Assembly: GCA_963695335.1 (NCBI GenBank)
Contig: OY968764.1
Location: forward strand, 704,001 to 768,000
DNA length: 64,000 nucleotides
Reading direction: 5' to 3'
Source: an uncultured bacterium
GTDB lineage: Bacteria > Babelota > Babeliae > Babelales > Vermiphilaceae
This document shows, piece by piece, positions 31,490 to 48,905 of this stretch. Position 1 is the first letter of the stretch, and each line of letters opens with the position of its first letter. A program made the translations under genes and the position numbers. The notes below the pieces were generated by a model. The model saw only the letters and a list, made by a program, of their open reading frames with translations. It was not told the DNA's origin and did not search any database.

Positions 31490-33337
31490 ATGTGTACTGT
31501 AGTGGGGTATATTGGAAAATCTCTTTGTAGATCCTATATTTTTGAAGGGCTGGCCAGATTAGAATACCGCGGATATGATTCTGCGGGTTTTGCTTGTCTT
31601 GAACCTTCTTCTCAAAAAGTTCTTTATACAAAAGCCTCTGGTCAACTTTCTCAATTAGCAGAACGTCTGCAACAAAATCCTATAGATGGCTATTTAGGTA
31701 TTGGCCACACTCGTTGGTCAACACATGGCGATTTTTCTGAGCGCAATGCTCATCCTCATTTTGACTGTTCCAAAACTATTTCCGTTGTACACAATGGTAT
31801 TATCGAAAATTATGATGAACTGAAAAAGCAGTTGCTTGTAGCAGGCCATATTTTTGAATCTGACACAGATACAGAAGTTGTCAGCCATCTTTTTGAATCT
31901 TTCTTAGCTACTAAAGAGTTTAATGCTCAAACTGTTTCTGAACTTGTGCAGATGCTTGATGGAATGTATGCATGTATTATTATGATGCAGCAGTTTCCTG
32001 ATACACTTGTTGCCATTCGCAAAAAATCACCGTTGTGTGTGGGGGTTGGCGATGGAGAGATGTTTATAGCTTCCGATGTGATTGCATTTGCAGGTAAAAC
32101 GGATAATGTTTTCTTCTTGCCCGATGAAAGCTTTGCGTTTGTTGATAAACATGGCATTAAAGCATATAATTTTGCTGGTCAAGAAATTCCTGTCACCATA
32201 GAAAAAACAAATGTCTCTTTTGATAACATTGATAAAGGTGGTCATGAACATTTTATGCTCAAAGAGATTTATGAACAAAAAAATGCGATTGCAAAAACTG
32301 TTGCAGGGTTGCGATCTTTAGGTTCCTCTTTATGGGATCAACTTGGCACAACCGCCACAAAAATAGAAAATCTTAAAGGCATATCATTATTAGCATGCGG
32401 AACATCATGGCATGCAGCGCGCATAGCGCAATTTTTTTTTGAATCAATCAGTAACATTCCTGTTTCTGTTCACCTTGCCTCCGAGTTTAGGCACCAGGTG
32501 TTTTTCCCTGAGCAAGATACGTTGTATATTTTTATTTCACAGTCTGGTGAAACCGCCGATGTTCTTGAAGCATTACGATTAATTAATGAATATGATCTAT
32601 TAACTGTTGCTCTGACGAATGTTGCAACAAGTACCGTTGTGCGAGAAGCAAAAGGGTATTTGCAAACGCATGCAGGGCCAGAGATTGCAGTTGCATCTAC
32701 CAAAGCATTTTCTACGCAGCTTGCAGCACTGTATTGGTTGGCGCATCGCATTGCGCTTGAAAAGAAGGTGATTGAAGTTGCAACATTGTCTCAGGCTGAG
32801 CAAGATTTATTGCATGCAGCAGATTTGATGGAAAAAAATCTAGAAAAATATCGAGATGTGATTGATACCACATATGCTCCTTTGTATGCGCAGCATAATA
32901 AAGCGATGTTTTTGGGCAGATATATGAGTTATCCACTTGCAATGGAAAGTGCATTAAAAATAAAAGAAGTGGCGTATGTATTTGCAGCGAGTTACCCTGC
33001 AGGCGAACTGAAACATGGTTCTCTTGCTCTTGTTGATGACACTGTTCCTGTCTATGTTTTTTCTTATCCAGATCCAACAATTTATCAAAAGTTTGTTTCT
33101 AACGTGCATGAAGTTAAAGCACGTGGTGGGCATGTGATTGCATTTGCGTATGAAGGGCAGCATGAGTTGTGTGAATTGGCCGAAACGGCATTTGTTATTT
33201 CTGGTGAATTTCCACCATTGCTTGGTGTATTGGTAACACTCGGCGTGATGCAATATTTTGTGTACGCGGTCGCTCGCGAGCGTGGATGCCCGATCGATAA
33301 ACCGCGTAATTTAGCAAAATCCGTGACGGTTGAATAG
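31490..33337 (+). CDS. glmS: Glutamine--fructose-6-phosphate aminotransferase
   Basis: MC start at 31490, LEYRGYDSAG, GHTRW, HNGIIEN, SQSGET, PRNLAKSVTVE. Confidence 0.97.
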   Translation: MCTVVGYIGKSLCRSYIFEGLARLEYRGYDSAGFACLEPSSQKVLYTKASGQLSQLAERLQQNPIDGYLGIGHTRWSTHGDFSERNAHPHFDCSKTISVVHNGIIENYDELKKQLLVAGHIFESDTDTEVVSHLFESFLATKEFNAQTVSELVQMLDGMYACIIMMQQFPDTLVAIRKKSPLCVGVGDGEMFIASDVIAFAGKTDNVFFLPDESFAFVDKHGIKAYNFAGQEIPVTIEKTNVSFDNIDKGGHEHFMLKEIYEQKNAIAKTVAGLRSLGSSLWDQLGTTATKIENLKGISLLACGTSWHAARIAQFFFESISNIPVSVHLASEFRHQVFFPEQDTLYIFISQSGETADVLEALRLINEYDLLTVALTNVATSTVVREAKGYLQTHAGPEIAVASTKAFSTQLAALYWLAHRIALEKKVIEVATLSQAEQDLLHAADLMEKNLEKYRDVIDTTYAPLYAQHNKAMFLGRYMSYPLAMESALKIKEVAYVFAASYPAGELKHGSLALVDDTVPVYVFSYPDPTIYQKFVSNVHEVKARGGHVIAFAYEGQHELCELAETAFVISGEFPPLLGVLVTLGVMQYFVYAVARERGCPIDKPRNLAKSVTVE

Positions 33338-33340
33338 AAA

Positions 33341-33697
33341 TTACTCTTTATATGTGAGTTGTATATTGTACTTTTCTCTAAGAGATTTCTCCAGTGAGTC
33401 TAGTTTATTGTTTCGGATTCCATTATTCTGAATCTCTTTGCAAAGAGATAAATAATTTTGCATAATAATAGCACGTAACAATTCATTATTTTCTTTGAGT
33501 AAATTGTTATTTTGTTCGTTTTGTTGGATGATTTTGTGGAGTAATTCATTGTTGTTATACATTGGTGTGTTTGTGTAAAAAGATCTTATTCTTTTAATTT
33601 GTTTTATTGAAGATGCTTTGGTTAACATAGCAAGTGAGTTGTTGGTAATGGTGAGTGCGCATGCAGTTGTAACTAAAAGTGCTGTTGACTTTTTCAC
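33341..33697 (-). CDS. Small secreted coiled-coil protein with presequence-like segment (array member 1)
   Basis: SLA|MLTKASSIKQIKRIRSFYT; ENNELLRAIIMQN core. Confidence 0.75.
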   Translation of the reverse strand: MKKSTALLVTTACALTITNNSLAMLTKASSIKQIKRIRSFYTNTPMYNNNELLHKIIQQNEQNNNLLKENNELLRAIIMQNYLSLCKEIQNNGIRNNKLDSLEKSLREKYNIQLTYKE

Positions 33698-33737
33698 AGA
33701 ATATCCTTTTGTTTAATTGTTTTTTGTTTGGCATAGT

Positions 33738-33764
33738 CTAGCAAAATCAGTTACGGTTGAATAG
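33738..33764 (+). repeat. Copy of the glmS 3' end (LAKSVTVE-stop)
   Basis: ctagcaaaatcagttacggttgaatag versus glmS ttagcaaaatccgtgacggttgaatag. Confidence 0.9.
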
Positions 33765-33830
33765 AAAATTATTTTTTTAACGTGGGTTCGACTTAAGTAA
33801 AATATTATACGTTTTAATGAATTATTCCTC

Positions 33831-34053
33831 CGCGCTCGCCCTGAACTTGTTGAAGGGTATCTTTGAGCGCACTTCTAATAACAATAGAAAAACAACAAAG
33901 TTTCTATTCTTTAGTGATGATTAAAAAAGAAAAATATTTTTTATTAAAAAAAGAAACCGCGCTCAAAGATATCCTTTTACCCCAATTTCCATTTCATTCC
34001 AATCGGGGACCCCGTCGGAAGGAACTGAAGATGGGGAGTTGCTGACGAGCGCG
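33831..34053. repeat. Inverted REP family A pair with a nested family C palindrome
   Basis: 33831-33870 and 33958-34053; accccaat...ggggacccc at 33979-34013. Confidence 0.75.
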
Positions 34054-34102
34054 TAAGATCAAATAATTTTTTAACTTTTCTTAGATTGAACTCACGTTTT
34101 TT

Positions 34103-34483
34103 TTATGACAATAAGGCGTTTTTATATTGCTGTAATTCTAGCAGCCTTTGCGCAAGAGCCGTCATTTCATGCTCTTCTAAGGCATATTCCATTTGCGTTC
34201 TTGGTTTGTTAGACCATTTTTCAATTTGATCAAGAACTTTATTTTGTTCAGTTATGCATCCCATGAGTAGCGTATTCTGTTTTTCTAAGATACTGTTTTT
34301 TGCTTTGATTGTATGACGATCCATGACTACTTGTACTCGTTGCATTGCTGCCAGTTCTTTGTTGTGCGTAGAAAATGAACGTATTTTTTTTGGACATAAA
34401 GCTTGTTTGATGAGCATTCCGGATGCATTGTTGATTGTTAATGCGCATGCAGTGCTGAGTAAAAGTGTGTTTATTTTTTTCAT
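34103..34483 (-). CDS. Small secreted coiled-coil protein with presequence-like segment (array member 2)
   Basis: ASG|MLIKQALCPKKIRSFST. Confidence 0.75.
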   Translation of the reverse strand: MKKINTLLLSTACALTINNASGMLIKQALCPKKIRSFSTHNKELAAMQRVQVVMDRHTIKAKNSILEKQNTLLMGCITEQNKVLDQIEKWSNKPRTQMEYALEEHEMTALAQRLLELQQYKNALLS

Positions 34484-34525
34484 GAAATGTCTTTCTCTTT
34501 TTATTGTTTTTTTGTTTGGCGTAGC

Positions 34526-34552
34526 TTAGCAAAATCAGTCACGGTTGAATAG
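34526..34552 (+). repeat. Second copy of the glmS 3' end
   Basis: ttagcaaaatcagtcacggttgaatag. Confidence 0.9.
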
Positions 34553-34556
34553 GAAT

Positions 34557-34943
34557 TTATTCCTTGGTATTAATTTTGAGGTTATATTGTTTTTCGAGTT
34601 TTTGATGCAAAGTGTTCAATGTTACATAATGATTAGCAGTTGGCATTTTAGACAAGCAATTGTGCAGGATCGAAAAGTATAGAACATTTTGTTGAAGTAG
34701 AGCGCGTAGCAATGCATTATTCTCTTTATTTTGTTCAATAATTTCGCGTAATAAATCCCTGTTATCTTTTGTTGAAATGTTAAGATCACTCTTTTGAAAT
34801 ATAAGGGGATGATCATGAGAGCTTGTTTTTGTACAGAAAGATCTTAGTTTTTTTATGTGGAAAGATTTTGTGGTTAACATACCACATGAGTTGCTGGTGA
34901 TAGCAAGTGTGCATGTCAGCAATAATTCTTTATTTATCTTCAT
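34557..34943 (-). CDS. Small secreted coiled-coil protein with presequence-like segment (array member 3)
   Basis: SCG|MLTTKSFHIKKLRSFCT; ENNALLRALLQQN. Confidence 0.75.
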   Translation of the reverse strand: MKINKELLLTCTLAITSNSCGMLTTKSFHIKKLRSFCTKTSSHDHPLIFQKSDLNISTKDNRDLLREIIEQNKENNALLRALLQQNVLYFSILHNCLSKMPTANHYVTLNTLHQKLEKQYNLKINTKE

Positions 34944-35308
34944 CTGAGATACTCCAAAGAAAGATCGTTGAGTCTTTCGGCCATATACGTTTCTTTTATT
35001 TTTGATGCGATTTTATATTTGTTTTCAAGTTTGTCTTTTTCAGAACATGAATAAGCAATTGCTCTTGGAGAACAAAGTTCAGTATGAAGATTTTGGTGTA
35101 GGTGGTTTAAGTAATTTTGTTGTATTATAACTCTATTTTGGCGTTTAATGTCACGTAATAATTTGTTATTTTCTTGCAATTCAGCTACAACGTCAAAAGA
35201 GACTGAATCATAATCAATTACATTTTGATCAGTCTCTTTTTTCATGGTAAATGAGTTGCTGGTAATGGTAAGTGCGCAGGTGAGTAAAAGTGCTGTTGTT
35301 TTTTTCAT
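34940..35308 (-). CDS. Small secreted coiled-coil protein, acidic mature N-terminus (member 4)
   Basis: SFT|MKKETD; QENNKLLRDIKRQN. Confidence 0.75.
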   Translation of the reverse strand: MKKTTALLLTCALTITSNSFTMKKETDQNVIDYDSVSFDVVAELQENNKLLRDIKRQNRVIIQQNYLNHLHQNLHTELCSPRAIAYSCSEKDKLENKYKIASKIKETYMAERLNDLSLEYLR

Positions 35309-35664
35309 ATCTTATCGTATTTTGTTTCGTCTTCGTACAGTTTTCTCATCATATCTCGATATGTGAATTCTGCTTTTTTTTCTGATTTTCCGTAAGCGAG
35401 GCTTCTGTGGGTTTCAACAAGGATTATTTCATGCTCAAAGCTTATATGGTTTTGACTTATAATAACTTTATTTTGGCGTTGGATATCTTTTAATAGTTTG
35501 TTGTTTTCTTGTAATAACGCGTTATTTTTTTCTTGTAATTGTCGTTTTTCGATTTTCTCCAGTTTTCTATTTTGCTTGGATATTGTTTCTTCGTGTTCCA
35601 TGCCACATGAGTTGTTGGTAATGGCAAGTGTGCATGTGAGTAAAGCTGCTGTTATTTTCTTCAT
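35305..35664 (-). CDS. Small secreted coiled-coil protein, acidic mature N-terminus (member 5)
   Basis: SCG|MEHEE; QENNKLLKDIQRQN; likely start MKKIT. Confidence 0.75.
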   Translation of the reverse strand: MKKITAALLTCTLAITNNSCGMEHEETISKQNRKLEKIEKRQLQEKNNALLQENNKLLKDIQRQNKVIISQNHISFEHEIILVETHRSLAYGKSEKKAEFTYRDMMRKLYEDETKYDKI

Positions 35665-35675
35665 AATTATCCTTT

Positions 35676-36077
35676 TCATTCTGATAACAAAATAGATGGT
35701 GTGTGTGTTATTTGATCAATCATCAATTGTGCTTCTGAATAATTGAGAAAATCTCTATTAAGAAGTTCATTGCCGTTGATGACATTAGTAGCATGATTTT
35801 GTTGTGCTTGTAACCTATTTATACTGTTTTGAATACGCAATTTTTCCAATTCAAGGTCACAAATTATCGCATCATTTCTATCATTAAGATCAGCCAATAA
35901 TTTTTTCTGTTCATGTTTTGTTGCTTTTTTAGAGTTGAATATATTTTTGGTGGGCAAGTGATAAGGTTTTATGTTTATTTGCTTTGTTGTGGATAACATT
36001 GTTTTGGGTAACATGCTTAATGAGTTGCCAGGAATAAACAGTGCACTTGTAAGTAAAACTATTATTATTGTTTTCAT
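35676..36077 (-). CDS. Small secreted protein, basic mature N-terminus (member 6)
   Basis: SLS|MLPKTMLSTTKQINIKPYH... Confidence 0.7.
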   Translation of the reverse strand: MKTIIIVLLTSALFIPGNSLSMLPKTMLSTTKQINIKPYHLPTKNIFNSKKATKHEQKKLLADLNDRNDAIICDLELEKLRIQNSINRLQAQQNHATNVINGNELLNRDFLNYSEAQLMIDQITHTPSILLSE

Positions 36078-36523
36078 ATAATAGAGTCTTCTGTTTTACT
36101 GCTTTTTTTTGTTTGAGAGGTTTTTGGCTTTGTTTGACTTGTCATTGGAATATGAAGCGTTTCATCATCCAATTGTTTATTGTGTGATTTGTATATTTGT
36201 TCGAAGGTTACTAGAGCATCTTTAGCGTGTTGGTCTTTAGATTTTCTAGGGTCATTTTTCATGCTATCTTGATATTCGATATTTGCTTTGTTTTGCATGA
36301 GCATGGTATGCAATAAGACATTAGTTTTATTTACTGCTTTAAGGTTTTGTTCTAACAACTCATCTGTTGGATTATTGTTGCTTGATTTTCTACTGATGGT
36401 ACTGCTCGATTCTGATGTATTATTTGTGGTGAGATTAAGACATTCTTCTATATCCATTTCCATGCCTTGGATATGGTTGAAGATGAATAGAGTGGTAAGT
36501 AAAAAGAGCGTTGTTTTTTTCAT
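36074..36523 (-). CDS. Small secreted protein, acidic mature N-terminus (member 7)
   Basis: IQG|MEMDIEE; TNVLLHTMLMQN; likely start MKKTT. Confidence 0.7.
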   Translation of the reverse strand: MKKTTLFLLTTLFIFNHIQGMEMDIEECLNLTTNNTSESSSTISRKSSNNNPTDELLEQNLKAVNKTNVLLHTMLMQNKANIEYQDSMKNDPRKSKDQHAKDALVTFEQIYKSHNKQLDDETLHIPMTSQTKPKTSQTKKSSKTEDSII

Positions 36524-36609
36524 TACCAGACCTTTTTTTATTTTTTTATCAATCATTACATGAAATTATATTTTGTTCAAATACTGTATTTTGACCAAAA
36601 TTAAACTGA

Positions 36610-36669: not shown

Positions 36670-38031
36670 ATGAGGATGTATGGAATGAAACGTATTATTG
36701 ATTACTATTTACATAGCTGGAAATACGATCTCCTTCGTAAGCCGTTATTGTTGCGCGGCGCCCGTCAGGTTGGCAAGACGCATGCAGCACGCATTTTGGG
36801 TAAAACATTTCCTGATTTTTTTGAAATTAACTTAGAAAGTCAACCAGCAGCGCATATTATTTTTGAAAAAGATCTGCAACCAGATAGGATCATCAGAGAG
36901 TTATCAGCATTTATGCAAAAACCAATTGTTCCTGGTAAAACATTATTATTTATTGATGAAATTCAAGCTGTTCCGCGGGCCATTTTGGCGCTGCGGTATT
37001 TTTATGAGCAAATGCCAGAATTGCATGTTATTGCCGCAGGATCGTTACTTGATTTTGCTATTGAAGAAGTTGGTATTCCTGTAGGGCGTGTTGAAAGTTT
37101 GTATATGCACCCAGTTTCATTTATTGAATTTTTATGTGCAACATCATCAGATATTTTGGTAGGAGCTTTATTTAAACATGTGAACACCAATCCAATCAGT
37201 GATATTGTACATCAACAACTGTTACAAGTTCTTGGTGAATATCTTGCCATTGGAGGGATGCCAGAAGCGGTGAAATGTTGGCAAGAAACAAAAGATGTAT
37301 TGAAATGTCCAAAAATTCATAAATCTATTCTATCTACCTATCGTCAAGATTTTGGCAAGTATACAAGAAAGCTGCAGGTAAAATATGTTGAACTTATTTT
37401 TCAATATATTCCGATGCAGCTTGGTCAAAAATTTAAATATACGGTTATAGAAGGTGAGTTTAGAAAACGTGAGCTTGCGCCAGCATTAGATCTTTTAGTA
37501 ACTGCAGGTGTTGCACAAAAAGTATATCATTCTGCTGGACAAGGAATTCCATTAGATGCGCAAGTTGATCCTCTTGATTATAAAGTTATTTTTCTTGATG
37601 TAGCACTTTCGCAACAAATGCTTGGATTGCAAACGTCTGGTTGGTACATAGACTCTTTAACTGAATTTGTGAATAAAGGGTCGTTGATTGAATCTTTTGT
37701 TGGGCAGGAAATATTGACCTATATGGACCCTTCAAGTTATCCAGCGCTGTATTACTGGCATAAGGAAACACGGGGCAGCAACGCTGAGATTGATTATTTA
37801 GTTCAACAAGAGGGGTATGTTGTACCGATCGAAGTAAAAAGTGGCGAAGGTCGTACATTAAAAAGTATGCAAACATTTCTTGAGTCGCATACCAAATCTT
37901 CATATGGCATTCGATTTTCCATACAAAATTATTCTGAATATAATAATGTGCGTTCTTATCCATTGTATGCAGTGTTTCAATTGGGTATGTGGGATAATGA
38001 ATTGCGTAAAGCGATTGAATTCCTTGTATAA
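36670..38031 (+). CDS. AAA_14/DUF4143-type ATPase with C-terminal PD-(D/E)xK-like motif
   Basis: GARQVGKT, FIDEIQ, AAGSL, GGMPE, EIDY...PIEVKS. Confidence 0.88.
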   Translation: MRMYGMKRIIDYYLHSWKYDLLRKPLLLRGARQVGKTHAARILGKTFPDFFEINLESQPAAHIIFEKDLQPDRIIRELSAFMQKPIVPGKTLLFIDEIQAVPRAILALRYFYEQMPELHVIAAGSLLDFAIEEVGIPVGRVESLYMHPVSFIEFLCATSSDILVGALFKHVNTNPISDIVHQQLLQVLGEYLAIGGMPEAVKCWQETKDVLKCPKIHKSILSTYRQDFGKYTRKLQVKYVELIFQYIPMQLGQKFKYTVIEGEFRKRELAPALDLLVTAGVAQKVYHSAGQGIPLDAQVDPLDYKVIFLDVALSQQMLGLQTSGWYIDSLTEFVNKGSLIESFVGQEILTYMDPSSYPALYYWHKETRGSNAEIDYLVQQEGYVVPIEVKSGEGRTLKSMQTFLESHTKSSYGIRFSIQNYSEYNNVRSYPLYAVFQLGMWDNELRKAIEFLV

Positions 38032-38080
38032 AATCAAATTTTTAAGATTCTTGAAAATAGGTGTTTTTTCTAATATCATG

Positions 38081-38113
38081 AGCTAAAGGTAACGCTACAT
38101 GTAACCTTTAGCT
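38081..38113. promoter_or_regulatory. Inverted repeat, probable AbiEi operator
   Basis: agctaaaggtaac-7-gtaacctttagct directly upstream of the antitoxin gene. Confidence 0.65.
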
Positions 38114-38129
38114 TACAATTGGAGAAAAA

Positions 38130-38717
38130 ATGGAAAAAAACGTTCTTTTGCAAATTTTCAAATCAAAATCGACTGTATTGTCTTTTAAAGAAATTTTGAT
38201 GGCAGCTGGCCCAATATCATCAGATCTTTTAAAGAGGCGTCTTCATTATTATGTGCAAAATGGAGAACTGTATGCAATTCGTAAAGGTTTTTATGCAAGG
38301 GATAAAAACTATGATCGGCGTGAATTTGCAACTAAATTATTTACTCCATCATATATTAGTTTTGAAACGGTTCTTGCTGAATCGGGTATAATTTTTCAAT
38401 ATTATTCTACTATTTTTGTGGCTACGTATCAGAGTAAAGATCTTGAGTGTGATGGTCAGGAATATTCATATAAAAAACTAAAAGATACCATTCTTGTTAA
38501 CACAACGGGTATTGAAAACAAGGGAGCTTATTTTATTGCTTCTCCTGAAAGAGCGTTTTTGGATGTGTTGTATCTGAATAAGAATTATTATTTTGATAAT
38601 TTGTCTGTGCTTAATTTTGATAAAATATTATCGATACTCCCTATTTATCATAATAAACGAATGGAAGAAGCTGTTTACGCACAATTGAAAGCTTTTAGAG
38701 AAGAGGAGTTGTCATGA
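38130..38717 (+). CDS. Type IV toxin-antitoxin antitoxin, AbiEi family
   Basis: IRKGFY, PSYISFETVL..G, ASPERAFLD.LY. Confidence 0.8.
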   Translation: MEKNVLLQIFKSKSTVLSFKEILMAAGPISSDLLKRRLHYYVQNGELYAIRKGFYARDKNYDRREFATKLFTPSYISFETVLAESGIIFQYYSTIFVATYQSKDLECDGQEYSYKKLKDTILVNTTGIENKGAYFIASPERAFLDVLYLNKNYYFDNLSVLNFDKILSILPIYHNKRMEEAVYAQLKAFREEELS

Positions 38718-39406
38718 CATTAGAAATAACAGCTCATAAAAATACCTTGCTGCATATTTTAAAAGATATTTATAGTGATGCAACGATGGCGCCGATCTTA
38801 GGTTTTAAGGGCGGAACTGCAGCATATCTCTTTTATGATTTACCTCGATTTTCAGTTGATTTAGATTTTGATATTTTGGATTCTCATCAAGAGGAATATG
38901 TCTTTGAGCAAATACAGAAAATTCTTGAACAATATGGCATAGTAAAAAAAGCACAGAAAAAAAGATTTAGTTTTTTCTTTTTACTTTCTTACGAAAATAA
39001 ACTTCACAATGCATATAACATTAAAGTTGAAATTAACCGTAGAAGTTTTGGATCAGAATATGAAATAAAATCATATCTTGGAATTCCTATGAAAGTTATG
39101 GTGAAACAAGATATGGCGGCACATAAATTAGTTGCTATGTTTGAACGTCTTGGTACAACTAACCGTGATATTTTTGATGTATGGTTTTTTTTGAAAAATA
39201 ATTGGCCAATTAATGAAAAAATTATTGAGTTACGAACAAACATGAGTATGAAGGAGTTTTTAAAGAAATGTATTATTGAGTTGGAAAAGATGAGTGATCG
39301 TGGCATTTTATCAGGATTGGGTGAATTGCTCGATGCGCAGCAAAAAGCGTGGGTTAAAAAACATTTGCGTGTGGAAACCATTTTTTTATTGAAGATGAAA
39401 TTGTAA
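38714..39406 (+). CDS. Type IV toxin-antitoxin toxin, AbiEii nucleotidyltransferase
   Basis: FKGGTA, RFSVDLDF, K..A...R..RDIFD; ATGA overlap with antitoxin. Confidence 0.88.
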   Translation: MTLEITAHKNTLLHILKDIYSDATMAPILGFKGGTAAYLFYDLPRFSVDLDFDILDSHQEEYVFEQIQKILEQYGIVKKAQKKRFSFFFLLSYENKLHNAYNIKVEINRRSFGSEYEIKSYLGIPMKVMVKQDMAAHKLVAMFERLGTTNRDIFDVWFFLKNNWPINEKIIELRTNMSMKEFLKKCIIELEKMSDRGILSGLGELLDAQQKAWVKKHLRVETIFLLKMKL

Positions 39407-39448
39407 GAAAAAGGCCAAAGTATCAGTTTATGACATTTTGGCCTTTTA

Positions 39449-39784
39449 TTATTCTTTATTCATATCACAATGTCCAAAATCTCTGTCTTTAGTTTTACCA
39501 GGCATTGCAGCGCGCTCGTCTGTTAAGTCTATGGTAACTCCAGAGAGAGATTCAAGTTTGCGTTCTAAGAATGCGTTTTCTTCTTTTAAACGTTTGTTCT
39601 CTTGCATAGTTTTGTGTAGCAATTTAGCTTGAGGAAATTCTGGAGGAAGTATTGAGTCGTAGCGTAATCGTTTTTGATTGTTTTTTTTGATGAGCTTTAG
39701 CGCAGATTTTTTTGTTGCAAGCATGCTGAATGCGGTTGTGCTGATTAAAGAGTTAAGAGCGCACAGAATTATTATTTTTTTCAT
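39449..39784 (-). CDS. Small secreted coiled-coil protein, basic mature N-terminus (outlying array relative)
   Basis: AFS|MLATKKSALKLIKKNNQKRLRY; QENKRLKEEN. Confidence 0.7.
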   Translation of the reverse strand: MKKIIILCALNSLISTTAFSMLATKKSALKLIKKNNQKRLRYDSILPPEFPQAKLLHKTMQENKRLKEENAFLERKLESLSGVTIDLTDERAAMPGKTKDRDFGHCDMNKE

Positions 39785-39811: not shown

Positions 39812-41299
39812 TTACAACTTTACTTCTTCAATATCTAGTATATCACCACTAATATAATTTTGTTTAAGATATGCAAGCGCTTCTGCGCGTGTTGTTACTA
39901 ATTTGGGAGTGTATGTTTGTGCGGTGTGTAACATGCTGATGAGTGAAATACAATCACGCAGCTGATTATCGTTTTGGAGCATCTCTTTTGCGCGATCATA
40001 GCGTTTACTACTTTTTTTCTTTGTTTCTGGAGCATGTACTTCTTTTTTTTCTTTGGCAAGCGGTATACCTTCTTTAGTAACTTTTATAAAGTTATCTAAT
40101 GTTTCTTCTCGGCCATAATTTTTAGTAAACCATTGTACCTGTTCTGTTGGTGGAGTGGTACGTTCAATCATAAAATCTGGTTCAATGCCAGTGCCCTGGA
40201 TGGTACTGTTATCAGGTAAAAAGTAAAGGCATGTGGTAATTTTGAGCGCGCAGTTGTTACTTATGGGTATAACTTCTTGCACCGATCCTTTTCCAAAAGT
40301 TTTTGTTCCTACTAAAAACACCAAATAATCATTGGTTGTATCAGAATTAATTTTCAAGCAACCAGCTAAAATTTCTCCTGCTGAAGCAGTGTAATTATTG
40401 ATGAGAATAAAAATAGGAAGTGTATTTTTTGCAACGGGATTTCTGCGTGTAGCATAGCGTTCAATTTCTTTGCCATGTTTATCTTTGGTCAGTGCAACAA
40501 GGCTGCCTTTTTTAAGAAAGAGCCCAGCAATATCAATTGCAGCATTGAGTAATCCTCCAGAATTATTGCGTAGGTCAAGAATAAGACCTTTAGCATGTTG
40601 TTCTTGTGATTTTTTAAGTAAAGCTTCAATCTGTTTGGTTGCAGCTTCAGTGAACATACTCAGAGAAATGTAAGCAATGTTGTGACTTTTAATATGAAAA
40701 CTCAGTGAGTGTTGTTCTTTAACAACATCGCGCACAATATCGAATGGAAGTAAATCAGGGCTATTTTCGCGCATTATTTTTACTTTGACCGTGGAATGGC
40801 GCTCCCCTTTGAGTTTGGAAACTATTTTTTCTGTTGAAAGCCCTTCAAGAATTTCACCATCAATTTCTACAATTTTATCCATCGGTTGAATGCCCACTTT
40901 ATCAGCTGGACCATCAGGAACAGTATCAACAATAGTCAGATGTTTATCTTTTGTCTTGCGCATATTATCAATGACAATGCCAACACCAAAAAATTCACCG
41001 GAAGTCATTTCGAGCATTTCATGATACGTCTTAGGGTCTAAAAAATTGGAATGAGCATCTAATGAATTAATAAAGCCATCAATGGCTTTGATCATATTTT
41101 CTTTGGGGTCTGTGATAGCGTAATGTTTTTTATGCGCAATATCCATTGCTTGTGCAAATGTGCGTGACCAATTAAAGATTGTTTCATCAAATGTTTCGTC
41201 TGATACTTGTGCGGATGTTTTGATATTTTTTGTTTCAGCAACTGGTGATGAAAAATAGCATGTTATAGCACAGAATAGTGCAAGTGATTTTTTTTTCAT
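39812..41299 (-). CDS. ctpA: Carboxy-terminal processing protease (S41)
   Basis: PDZ GVG, LDLRNNSGG, TASAGEI, TFGKGSVQ; likely start MKKKSL at 41299. Confidence 0.92.
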   Translation of the reverse strand: MKKKSLALFCAITCYFSSPVAETKNIKTSAQVSDETFDETIFNWSRTFAQAMDIAHKKHYAITDPKENMIKAIDGFINSLDAHSNFLDPKTYHEMLEMTSGEFFGVGIVIDNMRKTKDKHLTIVDTVPDGPADKVGIQPMDKIVEIDGEILEGLSTEKIVSKLKGERHSTVKVKIMRENSPDLLPFDIVRDVVKEQHSLSFHIKSHNIAYISLSMFTEAATKQIEALLKKSQEQHAKGLILDLRNNSGGLLNAAIDIAGLFLKKGSLVALTKDKHGKEIERYATRRNPVAKNTLPIFILINNYTASAGEILAGCLKINSDTTNDYLVFLVGTKTFGKGSVQEVIPISNNCALKITTCLYFLPDNSTIQGTGIEPDFMIERTTPPTEQVQWFTKNYGREETLDNFIKVTKEGIPLAKEKKEVHAPETKKKSSKRYDRAKEMLQNDNQLRDCISLISMLHTAQTYTPKLVTTRAEALAYLKQNYISGDILDIEEVKL

Positions 41300-41382
41300 T
41301 TTGTCCTCTTTTTGTTGATAGTAAACGTAAATATTGCAACGTAAGTCAATATATGACCAATATGATTGGAAAGGAGGTTTGT

Positions 41383-41664
41383 ATGATACGTATAAAGAAA
41401 ATAGTACTGAAAGTTTTATTGGTATGCGAGATGGCAGGATTTGGGCACATTTATTTTTTTGGTAGTAATGGTATTGCATCATTGCAAGCGCAAAAAAAAG
41501 TTGTTGAAGATTTAAAAAGCTATATTCTGGTCCTTGATACAGAAATTACGCAGTTGGAAAAAGAAATGTATGCGTGGCAACATGATGATTTTTATAAAGA
41601 AAAAGTTGCGCGTGAACAGCTGCAGATGGCACGCAAAGGTGATGAACTGTTTTATATAGGATAA
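41383..41664 (+). CDS. ftsB: Septum formation initiator FtsB/DivIC
   Basis: One TM, G.NG, coiled coil, EKVAREQLQMA...E; AGGAGG RBS before 41383. Confidence 0.75.
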   Translation: MIRIKKIVLKVLLVCEMAGFGHIYFFGSNGIASLQAQKKVVEDLKSYILVLDTEITQLEKEMYAWQHDDFYKEKVAREQLQMARKGDELFYIG

Positions 41665-43997: not shown

Positions 43998-44600
43998 TTA
44001 TAATTTTTCCAATTTAGCTGCTTTATGATCTGCTTTAAGATCGGCATATATTTGTAGGTAATTTATAGTTGCTTGACACTGCTGGAATGCTTGCTGATCA
44101 AAACCAACTTTTAAAGCTGTTTTTCTAGCTAGAGTTATAGGAGATATTCCATCTTTATTTTTTAGATTAAGTTCATGTTCATAAACATTTAAAAGTTGTA
44201 GCATATTAATATTACATTTTTCAGCTGCAAAATGAGCAGCGGTATCGCCAGTAAAGGTTTGTTCATCCGTAAGCAATGCAGAACCACAATATTTATTATC
44301 TTTTTCAAGAAGCACACTTGCTGATCTAATACAATTTTTATTATGATTAGAGCTTTTGTGTATTGTTGTGGGTGAATATAGGCTTTCTGCAGTGACATGC
44401 AACGCTGTTCTACCAAATTTATCTTTTGCATCTATTTCAGCATTAGTTTTAAGAAGTTTTTTTATTGTTGTAACATCTCCATTGCTTGCAGCTATATGTA
44501 AAGGGGTTTGCCCGAATGGTAATTCCTGTTCCGTTGCTAATGTTACAGCGCTAGTAGCGCCAAGAATGAGAGCTGAAAATAGCATTTGTTTTATAGTCAT
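43998..44600 (-). CDS. Secreted ankyrin-repeat protein
   Basis: GQTPLHIAA, GRTALH, GDTAAH. Confidence 0.85.
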   Translation of the reverse strand: MTIKQMLFSALILGATSAVTLATEQELPFGQTPLHIAASNGDVTTIKKLLKTNAEIDAKDKFGRTALHVTAESLYSPTTIHKSSNHNKNCIRSASVLLEKDNKYCGSALLTDEQTFTGDTAAHFAAEKCNINMLQLLNVYEHELNLKNKDGISPITLARKTALKVGFDQQAFQQCQATINYLQIYADLKADHKAAKLEKL

Positions 44601-44798
44601 AATGTGTCCTTTTGAGTAATAATGGTTACTAATCTACTTCACTATTTAGTTTACCAAAACCATAAAAAATGTCAATTAGAAACGTTTGGGTTTAGAGGGG
44701 GGGGCTTTGAGCGATTAGATCGTGCTATTGATGGGGGGTAAGAAAAAACATAAAAACCCCATGTTTTGGCATGAGGTTTTTTGTTGTTTTTGCGTGAT

Positions 44799-45155
44799 TT
44801 ATCGCTGTTTTTTTAAATAATCAATTGCATCAAGGAATGGTGTTATTTGTTGTTGATCTAATCGACAATCAAGGTAAAAACCAAGCCCATATGGTGAATT
44901 ATACTTACTGGATGCGGCGGGTTTACCATTAATAAAATAACCTCGACCGTTATTATTATGGAATGTTACCATTTTATCTTGTTCTTCTTTTGGCCATGTT
45001 TTAAAATCCATGACAAAATCCGCAATAGGTTTGCTTAATTGTTCAACATAGGTTTGAAAAATTGTTTCTTTTAGATTTTCATTTTCCATTGCTAACGCAA
45101 TATTGTTCATAGCAACAAAGATAAGAGTAGAAAGTACTATTTGTTTAGTAGTCAT
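44799..45155 (-). CDS. Small secreted hypothetical protein
   Basis: MTTKQIVLSTLIF...ALA|MENE. Confidence 0.7.
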   Translation of the reverse strand: MTTKQIVLSTLIFVAMNNIALAMENENLKETIFQTYVEQLSKPIADFVMDFKTWPKEEQDKMVTFHNNNGRGYFINGKPAASSKYNSPYGLGFYLDCRLDQQQITPFLDAIDYLKKQR

Positions 45156-45273
45156 GAATTATCCTTTTTTCAGTGATTGATATTTTACGGGTAGTTTATC
45201 ATGTTTTTGTTGAGTGTATATCACTATTTTTAGGATATTGCGTTGGGAAGTCATTTTTAAGTATGGTGCATAA

Positions 45274-45375
45274 GAGCGCTCGAAGGTACCCTTCGACATG
45301 CTTCCTTCTACGCCACTCTTTCGCCAAGGCTACAAAGCGCAGGCAAGGCTACGGAGGACACGGCAGGGCGAGCGC
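45274..45375. repeat. Nested composite REP (family B inside family A)
   Basis: gagcgctcgaaggtacccttcgac[...ttcgccaaggctac...aaggctacggaggacac]ggcagggcgagcgc. Confidence 0.8.
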
Positions 45376-45410
45376 AGAGGAACAAAACCAGTCTGTTGTA
45401 AAGGGGAATT

Positions 45411-47138
45411 ATGAAGCGCTTTAAAGTACATATATTTTGTGCAGTTGTAGCATGTGCATTTTTATTGATTGTGCGTGGAACACGCACGGTTGATTATGCA
45501 GAAATGTTTAGTAATTGGAAAAGTGCAGCAGTGAGTGCATTAAAGCAGCGTTACGATCAAACAAAAGCATTTGTAGGGCGAGAGTTAATTTCTCCCGTTA
45601 TTGCTAAAGTGATTAAAACTCAAGAAAAATCGATTATTGATAATCCGTATCAAGATACTATTGCAACAGTGCGTATCGGTAATAATTTGAACCCTGAAGA
45701 AAATGCGTACCGCATATATCGCGAACCAAAAGTAAAAGCTGCTTTAGAACGCTTATTGGGCAGATCATTAGATGGTAAAAAGATTCCCGTTATTTCTTTT
45801 GTGGGTAGTGGTGGTGGGTATCGTGCAATGTTATGTACAACCGGTTCTATGGTTGGCGCAGAAAAAATTGGTCTGTTGGATGTTACAACATATATTACTG
45901 CTTTATCAGGTTCCACATGGGCATTGGGGCCATGGATGATGACAGGGTGGTCATGGGCAGATTTTAGAATATATCTTGAGGGTATTGTTGTCAGAAATAT
46001 TTTTCAAATAGGTACTGATGTTGTACGCAATATTGCTGATGTGTGTGCAACAAAGCTTGCATTTGATCAATCTGTTACAACAGTTGATCTGTTTGGTGCG
46101 TTGCTTGCCAATAGATTATTAGATGGATTTGGTGAAGATAGACAATTGTTATACTTATCGCAGCAAACTCAACGTGTACAAGATGGTAACTGGCCGTATC
46201 CAATTTACACTGCAACAGATGGCAGTGAACAAGTTGTGCAAAATGCTCATTGGTATGAATTTACACCGCATGAAGTTGGATCCGCGGCATTTGGAGTGTA
46301 TGTTCCAACATGGGCGTATGGAAGAGCGTTTTATGGAGGTGGATCATTAGATTTTGCACCAGAGCAAACGTTAGGATTTATTTTAGGTACCTGTGGATCA
46401 GCGTATGCATTGCATATTGGTTTTGCGTGGGATGCATTAGTAGAAAATCTTTCCAATATGGTGTTAAAACAGTTGATGGATGAATATGTTATAGCACCGT
46501 TAAGAGGTAAACGTGTTTTCTGGGCTGAAGTTAATAACTTTATGAAAGGCATACCAAACATAGCAAATGCATATTCCAATCTACAAACACGTGACACATT
46601 AAAACTGGTTGATGCTGGACTTACCTTCAATTTACCATATCCACCCGTGAGTGGTGAACGCGCTGAACGTAAAGCTGATGTGCTGATTATGCTTGATGCT
46701 TCAGCGGGTATTATACCTGAGGAATTGAAAAAAGTTGAACAATATGCACGCAACCATAAACTTAAATTTCCCGTGATTGATTACACAGACTTGAATAAAA
46801 AAACGTTTGCAGTGTTTAAAAATGAAAAAGATGAAACTGTTCCAGTAGTTATATATATGCCACGTATAACTGATGCGCAATTGTGGCAAGAACATAAAAT
46901 AAAACCCGAAATGAGTGCATATAATAATCTTGAAGGTTTTAATTTGGAAACATGCACCAATGAAAGTGGTCAGGTGTGTAATACCTTAAATTTTGAATAT
47001 ACCGAAAAACAAGCGCAGCAGGTGATGAATCAGACGGAATTTAATATGGTGGCGAATAAAGATAACATTATTGAAGTTCTTAATTGGGTGATTGATCGTC
47101 AGGCGCCCAATGTTCCAGGAGCGCCACCTGCGGTATAA
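45411..47138 (+). CDS. cPLA2/phospholipase B-type lysophospholipase
   Basis: SGGGYRAM, LSGSTW nucleophile, YEFTP.E.G, LVDAG...N.P. Confidence 0.85.
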   Translation: MKRFKVHIFCAVVACAFLLIVRGTRTVDYAEMFSNWKSAAVSALKQRYDQTKAFVGRELISPVIAKVIKTQEKSIIDNPYQDTIATVRIGNNLNPEENAYRIYREPKVKAALERLLGRSLDGKKIPVISFVGSGGGYRAMLCTTGSMVGAEKIGLLDVTTYITALSGSTWALGPWMMTGWSWADFRIYLEGIVVRNIFQIGTDVVRNIADVCATKLAFDQSVTTVDLFGALLANRLLDGFGEDRQLLYLSQQTQRVQDGNWPYPIYTATDGSEQVVQNAHWYEFTPHEVGSAAFGVYVPTWAYGRAFYGGGSLDFAPEQTLGFILGTCGSAYALHIGFAWDALVENLSNMVLKQLMDEYVIAPLRGKRVFWAEVNNFMKGIPNIANAYSNLQTRDTLKLVDAGLTFNLPYPPVSGERAERKADVLIMLDASAGIIPEELKKVEQYARNHKLKFPVIDYTDLNKKTFAVFKNEKDETVPVVIYMPRITDAQLWQEHKIKPEMSAYNNLEGFNLETCTNESGQVCNTLNFEYTEKQAQQVMNQTEFNMVANKDNIIEVLNWVIDRQAPNVPGAPPAV

Positions 47139-47285
47139 TTACGTTGTATATATTTTACTGTTCGAATATATAAAGCCAGTCATTTGTAGGACTACCATAG
47201 CCATATTTATACTTATTATTGACTATATGAAAATGATTTGTGTAATCTGAAGATAGATATTAAAGTATAAAATAGGGGTTTTTGT

Positions 47286-48905
47286 ATGAAAATGATCAAA
47301 AGTAGGCTTTTTCTCGCATTTTTAGCTTTCAGCTTTGGGTATAATCTCCAAAGTATGGAACCTGAAAAAACGTTTCCTTTTGCCGATTTGCCACCAGAGA
47401 TGCAATATTATGTTGTAGCGCTCATGAGTGTCTCGAGTACTGCGAAATCGCTCCAAGAAGCTACTGATACAATAAGTGCACTTGCTGTAACCAATGAAAA
47501 TTTGAATGAGTTACTTAATGATCCTACAATTTGTCTTAAGATTATTAAAAATCTTGCAAAGCAGTTTGGATGCTCAGATCAAGAAGCAGCTGAAGCATTA
47601 GGAACGCAAGAAGCAAAAAGACGTTTAGATATTCAACAACAGTTTTTTGATCTGTGCGATCAAGATGTTGAACTTTTTACGCAAGCAGATTTTGATGATC
47701 TTTATGAGCTATATAAAAAATATGTAGATTTTAATTTCACTTATTATGTTGTTTTTCATCACGAAGGCTTTAATCCAGAAAAAATTGAAACAACTCTTTT
47801 AATGTTAGCAATAAGAGCAGAAAATTGTTCCCTCATTAAAATATTGCTTACACTTGGGGCAAATAGTAATCTGGCTAATGCTGACGGATATACACCATTA
47901 ATGGTTGCTGTTGATACTAACAATAAGGATATAGTCCAGTGTCTTTTAGAAAATTCTGAGCCTCATATTGATCTGCAAGATAGTGAAGGTAAGACGGCTC
48001 TTATGTTTGCGGTAATAAAAAATAACTGTTCTATTATCAAAAAGCTTCTTGAACGTGGAGCAGATATAAATAAGACTGATAATAGTGGAATGACAGCGTT
48101 AATGATCGCAGTTGGTCATGGACATACAGAAGCAGTTCAATGTCTTTTGCAAAATCCTTATATTGAAATAAATAAAAAAGATAAAACTGGATTGGTAGCG
48201 TTTATGTACGTGGTAGGAGCAAAACAAAACAGTTGTCCTATTCTTCAAATATTTTTGCGTCATGGAGTAGATATTAATCAAGTTGATGATGAGGGAATAA
48301 CAGTATTAATGCTGGCGATTATGGTTAATAAAATGGATCTGTTTGAATGTCTTGTGTATAATCGCAAGATTGCAATTGATCAAGCAGATAAAAAGGGAAT
48401 TACTCCTCTTATGTGGGCAGTAAGATACAACAATTGCCCTATGATTAAAATTCTTCTTGAGCGTGGAGCAGATGTTAATAAAGGTGACCTCGGCGGAATA
48501 ACAGCGTTAATGCTAGCGGCTTATGATGGTCATATAGAGACGGTTCAATGTCTTTTTGATAATTCTACTAATATTGCAATAAATCAACGAACTGAAGAAG
48601 GCTTGACAGCTCTTATGTTTGCAGCAAGAGGAAAAGCGCATAATGATTATATTATTAAAATGCTTCTTAATCATGGAGCAGATATTGACCAACAGGATGC
48701 AAAGGGATGGACTGCTCTGATGATAGCAATGAGTATGAAAAATAAGCCAATTATCAAATTTCTTCTTGATGCGGGCGCAAATCCAGAACTTGGAACTTAT
48801 GACGGCCTCACGCCTTTACAATTGGCAGAACAAACTGGTGATCAAGACATTATTGATCTTGTTGTGGATGCCATAAAAAAATGGGGTTTAAAAAAGAGTA
48901 TGTAA
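47286..48905 (+). CDS. Secreted F-box-like plus multi-ankyrin protein
   Basis: LQS|MEPE, FADLPPEMQ, many G.TALM.A repeats. Confidence 0.88.
   Translation: MKMIKSRLFLAFLAFSFGYNLQSMEPEKTFPFADLPPEMQYYVVALMSVSSTAKSLQEATDTISALAVTNENLNELLNDPTICLKIIKNLAKQFGCSDQEAAEALGTQEAKRRLDIQQQFFDLCDQDVELFTQADFDDLYELYKKYVDFNFTYYVVFHHEGFNPEKIETTLLMLAIRAENCSLIKILLTLGANSNLANADGYTPLMVAVDTNNKDIVQCLLENSEPHIDLQDSEGKTALMFAVIKNNCSIIKKLLERGADINKTDNSGMTALMIAVGHGHTEAVQCLLQNPYIEINKKDKTGLVAFMYVVGAKQNSCPILQIFLRHGVDINQVDDEGITVLMLAIMVNKMDLFECLVYNRKIAIDQADKKGITPLMWAVRYNNCPMIKILLERGADVNKGDLGGITALMLAAYDGHIETVQCLFDNSTNIAINQRTEEGLTALMFAARGKAHNDYIIKMLLNHGADIDQQDAKGWTALMIAMSMKNKPIIKFLLDAGANPELGTYDGLTPLQLAEQTGDQDIIDLVVDAIKKWGLKKSM

What the first reader, a model, noticed from the sequence alone, without database searches (positions are those of the whole stretch)
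33311..34552. glmS 3' end present three times with only synonymous differences, punctuating the effector array
Seen: the last 27 nt of glmS (tta gca aaa tcc gtg acg gtt gaa tag) recur at 33738 (cta gca aaa tca gtt acg gtt gaa tag) and 34526 (tta gca aaa tca gtc acg gtt gaa tag). All encode LAKSVTVE-stop and every difference is silent. One array gene lies between successive copies, and the genes next to glmS (33341) and next to copy 2 (34557) are close paralogs ending ...KE. Established: the glmS 3' end is the Tn7 target, and integrating elements often restore a target gene's tail. Inference: each copy was once a working glmS terminus, so effector cassettes accumulate by serial insertion into glmS. 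Alternatively the copies are conserved because they overlap the cassette promoters (TGcTAGACT / TGcTAAGCT on the minus strand). No integrase or Tns gene is present in the window.
Basis: partly seen in the sequence, partly recalled or inferred. Interest (0 to 1): 0.78.

Follow-up and report, generated by a model that had tools for sequence, protein, structure and literature searches.

The report
Orphan gene tails mark gene insertions
In this small-genome bacterium, the last few codons of glmS and of about ten other genes, mostly housekeeping ones, reappear a short way downstream with extra genes in between, probably because DNA from relatives was spliced in at the gene's end and pushed the old ending aside without a dedicated integrase.

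Summary
The last 27 nt of glmS occur at 33311, 33738 and 34526, all five differences are silent, and no other close site exists in the genome.

It is not glmS- or Tn7-specific. The genome (Babeliales-like) has no TniQ. A codon-blind scan of 1015 genes found 12 such downstream tail copies (27-84 nt) at 11 genes, including polA, dnaA, bamA, atpG, PBP2 and a secretin. Differences are mostly silent: 47 of 69, P=5e-4 against duplication-and-decay; the window alone gives P=0.07.

Relatives carry tails of different lengths at glmS (5 of 132 loci) and polA (3 clear of 10), so there is no fixed att site. An empty polA site exists in the closest relative.

Best reading (0.6): related-strain DNA recombines into the conserved gene, brings its own downstream genes, and joins back just before the resident stop codon. 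The orphan tail is then the displaced former terminus. This resembles homology-facilitated illegitimate recombination or circle-plus-single-crossover, known from Rhs/T6SS arrays; my searches found no report of it at housekeeping genes genome-wide. The mechanism is inferred, not shown. 'Effector' and 'promoter' roles are unverified.

The parts
31490..33337 (+). glmS (longest ORF from 31451; likely ATG at 31490)
   Evidence: TIGR01135 676 bits, over cut-off; Pfam SIS + GATase
33311..33337 (+). Working glmS tail (copy 1)
33341..33697 (-). Gene A, 118 aa, hydrophobic N-terminus (read from sequence), no family
   Evidence: 45% to first post-glmS gene of G253, 34% to gene C
33698..33737 (-). Leader of A: reads as the cut-off 3' end of the gene that precedes A in relatives; junction 1
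   Evidence: aligns with the A|G boundary of G257 and G251; the last 7 nt also resemble glmS upstream of the tail
33738..33764 (+). Orphan glmS tail, copy 2 (3 silent differences)
   Evidence: public unitig over 33735-33885
33765..34102 (.). Non-coding spacer with dispersed palindromic repeats
   Evidence: hairpin z -2.2 for 33815-33900; related repeats elsewhere in the window and genome
34103..34483 (-). Gene B, 126 aa, same loose family
   Evidence: 53% to second post-glmS gene of G253; pairs with it at 100/98 in the tree
34484..34525 (-). Leader of B; junction 2, same join position as junction 1
   Evidence: (D6)
34526..34552 (+). Orphan glmS tail, copy 3 (2 silent differences)
   Evidence: public unitig over 34489-34639
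34557..36556 (-). Genes C-G: five overlapping small genes of the same loose family; inferred older part of the array
36670..39784 (.). Rest of the variable interval: AAA_14/DUF4143 ATPase, a 195-aa gene plus AbiEii toxin gene, one more array gene
39812..41482 (-). S41 protease gene, the conserved far boundary of the variable interval in most relatives shown

Best explanation
The tails are scars of additive gene capture that needs no integrase. Step 1 (inferred): DNA from a related Babeliales strain or species, carrying the same conserved gene plus its own downstream genes, pairs with the resident gene. Step 2 (inferred): the incoming allele supplies the new 3' end and the new downstream genes; the other end joins back to the chromosome 27-84 nt before the resident stop codon. 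This could be an illegitimate join (HFIR-like) or circularisation followed by one crossover; the data cannot separate the two. Step 3 (shown as structure): the result is gene - inserted genes - orphan tail - former neighbour. Repeated events stack cassettes next to the gene, as at glmS here. Long duplicates would be removed by recombination, so short ones persist (inferred). glmS is one of about 11 such sites in this genome.
For: Genome-wide: 17 intergenic hits for 3' ends downstream among 1015 genes; 14 reach the last 12 nt (12 tail copies at 11 genes, 1 exact tandem repeat, 1 double count). Mid-gene queries gave 1 intergenic hit, a dispersed repeat. Hosts include polA, dnaA, bamA, atpG, PBP2, a secretin, a GT4 (mraY-like) gene and an AP endonuclease. 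Silent excess: 47 of 69 against 33.8 expected for duplication-and-decay conditioned on mutation type, P=4.6e-4; relatives' glmS copies without G050, 16 of 23, P=0.017. A 114-nt copy in G123 has 11 differences, all silent. Age: 4-fold sites of glmS differ by 0.7-1.1 per site between congeners, so a dead copy as old as the A/C split should have lost about 6-8 of 20 non-silent sites; both copies lost 0 (my estimate). In 7 of 12 events the inserted genes show no protein similarity to the genes after the copy. Empty site: G257 polA is followed directly by the gene family that follows the copy here. Inserts look like relatives' post-glmS DNA cut at the far end: the leader of A matches the end of the gene preceding A in G257/G251, and the 95-nt G255 insert matches the leader that follows glmS in G254. 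A non-silent difference in the G251 and in the G249 polA copy matches the residue in other species' working polA. Tail length varies at one gene: glmS 27, about 58, 66, 66-75 nt; polA 30, about 48, about 62 nt. ComEC-domain and DprA genes are present.
Against: No event was caught in a population: the collection holds one genome per species, and public runs cover the locus only in scraps. The window alone is not significant (5 of 6 silent, P=0.068), and with all 17 hits P is 0.012. 4 of 12 events (glmS twice, atpG, the GT4 gene) have paralogs on both sides, as tandem duplication predicts; the GT4 copy (6 silent, 8 not) and the G092 glmS copy (6, 5) look like plain decay. The two window cassettes share one junction, which independent illegitimate joins do not predict. 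HFIR usually deletes about as much as it inserts and is rare (PMC3240628, passages). mutS, mutL and recJ are present, which should hinder recombination at 86-93% identity. The ComEC hit covers only positions 11-151 of 270, and I found no report of competence in this lineage. Local alignment favours well-preserved copies. Gene conversion between tail and copy could also keep them alike.
Confidence: 0.6

Rival explanations
1. Tandem duplication inside the genome. A convergent gene abuts the host stop codon, so any duplication of it carries the tail. The genes then diverge fast, while decay is slowed by gene conversion or hidden by detection bias.
For: A, B and C are paralogs, and so are the genes flanking the atpG and GT4 copies. 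The two window junctions are the same. G092 has close paralogs around a decayed copy. An exact 75-nt tandem repeat of a gene end exists.
Against: 7 of 12 inserts are unrelated to what follows. Silent excess. B and probably A are closer to genes of another species than to C (the tree leaves A/C unresolved). Homology stops within 5 nt of the stop codon in 10 of 12 events.
Confidence: 0.2
2. Site-specific integrases acting in trans restore the 3' end of each target gene, as tRNA- and gene-targeting islands do; the integrase genes were lost later.
For: The structure gene-insert-tail is the classic attL/attR layout (established knowledge). Both window cassettes join at the same position. The genome has 2 non-Xer-like tyrosine recombinases and 2 large serine recombinases.
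Against: 11 different targets in 1.37 Mb. Inserts are 0.2-3 kb with no integrase among the 12 inserted proteins scanned (one holds an IS transposase). Tail length varies at the same gene. No shared motif is visible at the junctions (by eye). The serine recombinases sit beside tRNA genes, and all six recombinases are more than 60 kb from glmS.
Confidence: 0.08
3. The copies arose by any route and are kept because they serve as a promoter or terminator for the convergent genes.
For: An extended -10-like hexamer lies about 35 nt before the A and B starts (sequence). The polA copies keep the terminator hairpin.
Against: No promoter was called there, and the scan is at chance level. A promoter does not explain preservation of first and second codon positions over 60-114 nt at dnaA, bamA and the G123 gene. 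Junctions fold no better than shuffles.
Confidence: 0.08
4. Tn7-family activity at attTn7 made or maintains the copies as TnsD sites.
For: The glmS 3' end is the Tn7 target (PMC11014353, passages). G050 has a copy differing only at wobble sites.
Against: TniQ in 1 of 261 genomes and not in any genome with copies. The pattern occurs at other genes. 5428 places in 5425 E. coli genomes with a match, so long glmS tail copies are nearly absent where Tn7 is common (blind to 27-nt copies).
Confidence: 0.02

Closest known systems
Sequential displacement in T6SS effector-immunity and Rhs arrays by homology-facilitated illegitimate recombination (PMC5361080, passages read)
   Same: A conserved upstream sequence anchors incoming DNA; old 3' pieces are pushed downstream; arrays grow proximally; no integrase is known.
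   Different: There the anchor is a toxin-delivery gene and the 3' end is replaced by a different domain. Here the anchors are housekeeping genes, the end is replaced by an equivalent allele, and the pattern is spread over the chromosome.
Circularisation plus single crossover of incoming linear DNA in E. coli (PMC3240628, passages read)
   Same: Gives an insertion flanked by a partial duplication of the homologous locus, of variable length (109-950 bp in 14 sequenced clones).
   Different: Laboratory conjugation with a plasmid substrate; longer duplications; identical alleles.
HGT hotspots without mobile elements, flanked by recombining core genes (PMC5635113, passages read)
   Same: Variable interval between core genes, no integrase, link to transformable species.
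   Different: The proposed double homologous recombination replaces content and leaves no tail copy; it does not explain additions.
Integrative elements that restore a tRNA or protein-gene 3' end (recalled)
   Same: Layout gene - cargo - displaced tail; the copy was once functional.
   Different: No integrase in the cargo, no fixed crossover, many unrelated targets.
Tn7 islands at attTn7 (PMC11014353, passages read)
   Same: Variable DNA directly downstream of glmS.
   Different: No TniQ/TnsD. Tn7 inserts at a set distance from glmS; that it makes only a 5-bp duplication and no tail copy is recalled.

Membership tests
Tn7-like element at glmS | TniQ/TnsD gene in the element or genome | tested here: not met
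   PF06527 in 1 of 261 genomes, 0 in this one
Tn7-like element at glmS | Transposon ends and short target duplication downstream of the stop codon | not tested
   No end search was run; gene A ends 3 nt after the glmS stop
Integrase-mediated island with gene-restoring att site | Integrase encoded in or beside the insert | tested here: not met
   No PF00589 or PF00239 match in the window; nearest is XerC-like, 62 kb away
Integrase-mediated island with gene-restoring att site | Fixed crossover, so constant tail length per target | tested here: not met
   glmS 27-75 nt and polA 30-62 nt across genomes; the two window copies do share one join
Integrase-mediated island with gene-restoring att site | Displaced 3' end repeated at the far side | tested here: met
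HFIR / insertion-duplication product | One end anchored in DNA homologous between donor and recipient | tested here: met
   Inserts begin at the host stop codon and resemble relatives' post-gene DNA; structural evidence only
HFIR / insertion-duplication product | Other end joined at 3-10 nt microhomology or none | tested here: inconclusive
   Donors are not in hand; a few shared bases at the window junctions
HFIR / insertion-duplication product | RecA dependence and DNA uptake | not testable with these tools
   ComEC-domain and DprA genes present; recA not searched; no experiment
HFIR / insertion-duplication product | Insertion coupled with a deletion of similar size (typical HFIR) | tested here: not met
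   At polA the former neighbour and terminator are kept; a duplication is seen instead, as in the circle-plus-crossover class
Integron | IntI and attC hairpins | tested here: not met
   No recombinase reaches the integron-integrase cut-off of TIGR02249; junctions fold no better than shuffles

The most novel reading that the evidence does not exclude
The orphan tails are not only scars but reusable short homology arms. Once a cassette ends in a copy of the host gene's tail, it can be added to any relative by a double crossover (long arm = the gene body, short arm = the tail), or leave and re-enter as a small circle. Housekeeping-gene ends then act as many integrase-free landing pads, through which these protist parasites trade secreted-protein and toxin-antitoxin genes between species. 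This would explain the shared junction of the two window cassettes. It would also explain the related antitoxin cassette at polA in two distant congeners, each with a tail matching its own host (6 versus 19 differences in 60 nt).
Probability: 0.3. Interest if true: 0.78.

Novelty: new variant of a known kind. Interest (0 to 1): 0.57.

Why it matters
If right, it gives a countable fossil record of how genes enter hotspots that have no mobile element, a point left open by hotspot surveys (PMC5635113). It also implies cross-species recombination at 86-93% identity in a lineage of intracellular parasites that keeps mismatch repair. The signature (short, silent-biased 3' copy downstream) is cheap to scan for in any genome set. 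If wrong, it is ordinary tandem duplication at gene-dense boundaries.

Tried and rejected
Tn7/TnsD link: rejected. XerCD or integron-type site: junctions do not fold, and no common motif is visible across events. Promoter explanation: scan at chance level. Lineage specificity: not shown; glmS copies in 5 of 132 Babeliales loci versus 0 of 40 distant loci, P=0.59. The E. coli search cannot see 27-nt copies. Leading-strand bias: 11 of 14, P=0.056, not claimed. Loss of mismatch repair or recJ as an enabling factor: genes are present. Double hits in G133 and G045 look like assembly duplicates, and G234 has two full glmS genes; these were not counted. The G253 remnant (score 34) is below the opposite-strand maximum (42) and is not counted. 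4 of 135 fetched loci were dropped because no native tail was recognised. The first phylum search used a silent-only pattern and the profile scan favours non-wobble positions, so statistics rest on codon-blind scans; G050 was found only by the biased methods. Outgroup polarisation was clear for dnaA (5 of 6 changes on the working gene) but mixed for bamA (5, 4, 3 ties) and confounded by AT bias. No mosaic break was visible along glmS in 150-nt windows. The array-protein tree leaves A and C unresolved. dnaA and bamA copies were seen only in this genome among 11. The A-leader-plus-tail junction was not found in 79 other family genomes. No RNA holder was listed. Rfam: 0 hits in 3 loci. Atlas: no usable hit. 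Earlier findings: none. Literature searches that found no description of this pattern; the library lacks most subscription papers, and no supplements were read.
Full report
Observation. The window lies at C1:704001-768000 of a single-contig 1.37-Mb genome, 94% complete. The closest named glmS relatives are labelled Candidatus Babeliales/Dependentiae (best 86% identity), a group of protist parasites rich in secreted ORFans (PMC6561590, passages). glmS ends at 33337. Its last 27 nt recur at 33738 (3 differences) and 34526 (2 differences), all silent. No other + strand site in the genome is within 8 mismatches. Public unitigs match across copy 2 and across junction 2 plus copy 3 without a differing letter, so an assembly error is unlikely.

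Anatomy. The order is glmS - gene A - 40-nt leader - copy 2 - 338-nt repeat-rich spacer - gene B - 42-nt leader - copy 3 - genes C to G, all on the minus strand. The proteins have no Pfam family over a cut-off. A and C are 34% identical. A is 45% identical to the first post-glmS gene of G253 and B 53% to the second (the B pair has 100/98 support, A/C is unresolved). The two leaders share about 30 nt next to the tail. They read as the cut 3' end of the gene that precedes A in G257 and G251. The interval between glmS and the S41 protease differs in every congener shown.

Relatives at glmS. A silent-only pattern matched 169 of 261 phylum genomes. I fetched 135 downstream regions; 4 were dropped, giving 132 loci with this genome. 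A profile scan found 7 copies in 4 loci (G000, G255, G189, G050), all on the same strand and within 1.3 kb. A codon-blind alignment found the G000, G255 and G189 copies plus a decayed one in G092 above the opposite-strand maximum, but not G050. Lengths are 27 (34 with a poorer flank), about 58, 66, 66-75 and about 60 nt. The 95 nt between glmS and the first G255 copy match the leader that follows glmS in G254. Among 40 distant glmS loci none had a copy, but 5 of 132 versus 0 of 40 is not significant.

Not specific to glmS. I compared 120-nt pieces of 1015 genes with 7 kb on each side. 3' ends gave 17 intergenic hits downstream. 14 reach the last 12 nt; they are 12 tail copies at 11 genes, one exact 75-nt tandem repeat and one copy counted twice. 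Mid-gene pieces gave 1 intergenic hit, a dispersed repeat. 5' ends gave 9 upstream intergenic hits, of which I read 1 as a true head copy and 8 as dispersed repeats. Hosts with a family are polA, dnaA, bamA, atpG, PBP2, a secretin, a GT4 gene, an AP endonuclease and glmS. Inserts include an HTH/Gp49 toxin-antitoxin pair, WD40 plus PIN genes, a 2OG-Fe(II) oxygenase, and glyoxalase, IS and GNAT genes. In 200-kb samples of five other genomes, 3' intergenic hits were 3 of 157 genes (G255), 0 of 163 (G253), 0 of 152 (G260), 3 of 145 (G123, one a repeat protein) and 0 of 138 (G042). The rate is therefore uneven.

Were the copies once working ends? Silent differences are 47 of 69 in the 14 hits. Duplication followed by neutral decay of the copy and silent drift of the gene predicts 33.8, conditioned on mutation type (P=4.6e-4). 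All 17 hits give 52 of 94 (P=0.012), the window alone 5 of 6 (P=0.068), and relatives without G050 16 of 23 (P=0.017). bamA has 11 of 12 silent and dnaA 6 of 6; a 114-nt copy in G123 has 11 of 11. The GT4 and G092 copies look neutral. For glmS, congeners differ by 0.7-1.1 per 4-fold site, so a dead copy as old as the A/C split should show about 6-8 non-silent changes; both show 0 in 27 nt (my estimate). At polA, clear copies occur in G000, G249 and G251 and a faint one in G252, among 10 congeners examined, at 30, about 62 and about 48 nt. G257 has the empty arrangement. The G249 copy differs from its own polA at 6 of 60 nt and from the G000 polA at 19, and has since gained a stop. One non-silent change in each of the G249 and G251 copies matches another species' working residue.

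Mechanism. TniQ is in 1 of 261 genomes and not here. The genome has XerC- and XerD-like genes, two other tyrosine recombinases and two large serine recombinases beside tRNA genes, none within 60 kb of glmS. Many targets and variable lengths argue against site-specific integration. In 7 of 12 events the insert is unrelated to the genes after the copy, 1 has no gene, and 4 have paralogs on both sides, so some events may be tandem duplications. The best fit for most is one-sided homologous capture from relatives. Shown: the structure, the silent excess, the empty site, and donor-like arrangements in relatives. Inferred: the DNA source, the recombination steps and the order of events. ComEC-domain and DprA genes are present, and so are mutS, mutL and recJ, which work against it.

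Comparison with what is known. It works like the sequential displacement proposed for Vibrio T6SS and Rhs arrays (PMC5361080, passages). It also resembles the partial duplications made by circularisation and single crossover in E. coli; the same paper notes that true HFIR usually deletes DNA and is rare (PMC3240628, passages). Short repeats flank 10-18% of small variable segments in three species (PMC2884548, passages). Many hotspots lack mobile elements (PMC5635113, passages). It fails membership tests for Tn7 elements, integrase islands and integrons. Term searches in two Dependentiae papers found no mention of competence (PMC4776705; PMC6561590). Nine literature searches found no account of short orphan tails at housekeeping genes. 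That library is incomplete and no supplements were read.

Verdict. The feature is real and part of a genome-wide pattern. New variant of a known kind; interest 0.57. The bolder reading, that tails act as reusable short homology arms, has probability about 0.3.

Noticed in passing
L035:2208-2377 (G050): Three glmS tails 69 and 74 nt apart with no gene between them. Spacers are a palindromic repeat found at 3 sites in that genome. Copy 2 differs from the resident tail in all 9 codons, silently, more than 99% of pairs of working tails do. Its first half may come from the repeat. Unexplained.
   Followed up: partly
window 34519-34536 and genome-wide: A dispersed palindromic repeat (most of 29 pattern matches) has a core resembling the copy-3 junction and the glmS L-A-K codons; it could supply microhomology for a repeated join.
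   Followed up: partly
window 38064-39406: 195-aa gene plus AbiEii toxin gene with a palindromic leader; the same pair follows glmS directly in G254, and only its leader remains in G255.
   Followed up: partly
G000:C1:423585-424475 (L175): Toxin-antitoxin pair between the polA end and a 56-nt exact copy of tail plus terminator; a related antitoxin cassette sits at polA in G249.
   Followed up: yes
G123:C1:102206-102715 (L326): 169-aa gene (ruvC-like by my reading, no call) with a 114-nt tail copy about 850 nt downstream, 11 differences, all silent.
   Followed up: partly
G000:C1:1312343-1313020; G253:C1:148841; G123:C1:151654: Copies of gene 5' ends lying upstream also occur, less often than tails in this genome.
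   Followed up: no
G000:C1:495299 and 886605: Large serine recombinases directly after tRNA-Glu and tRNA-Gln; the second region also holds a 408-aa tyrosine recombinase and a 781-aa gene, probably an integrated element.
   Followed up: no
G000:C1:369218, 574578, 1166633: Three Y1 transposase matches with identical scores; possible drivers of the palindromic repeats.
   Followed up: no
G000:C1:249965-252000: Two copies of a sequence that I read as group II intron domains V-VI (recalled likeness).
   Followed up: no
G000:C1:999238-999390: Exact 75-nt tandem repeat covering the end of an 1801-aa gene; recent duplication or assembly slip.
   Followed up: no
L135 (G092) and L082 (G223): Two genomes of different families have a tail-like sequence downstream of glmS that ends S-V-M-I-K-stop; in G092 it is a decayed copy, in G223 it is unclear.
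   Followed up: partly
L038/L039 (G234): Two full-length, different glmS genes on separate contigs; G233, G235 and G236 also have a second near match.
   Followed up: no
window 43998-48905: Two ankyrin-repeat genes and a lysophospholipase-domain gene.
   Followed up: no
L172 (G199): The only TniQ match in the phylum sample.
   Followed up: no
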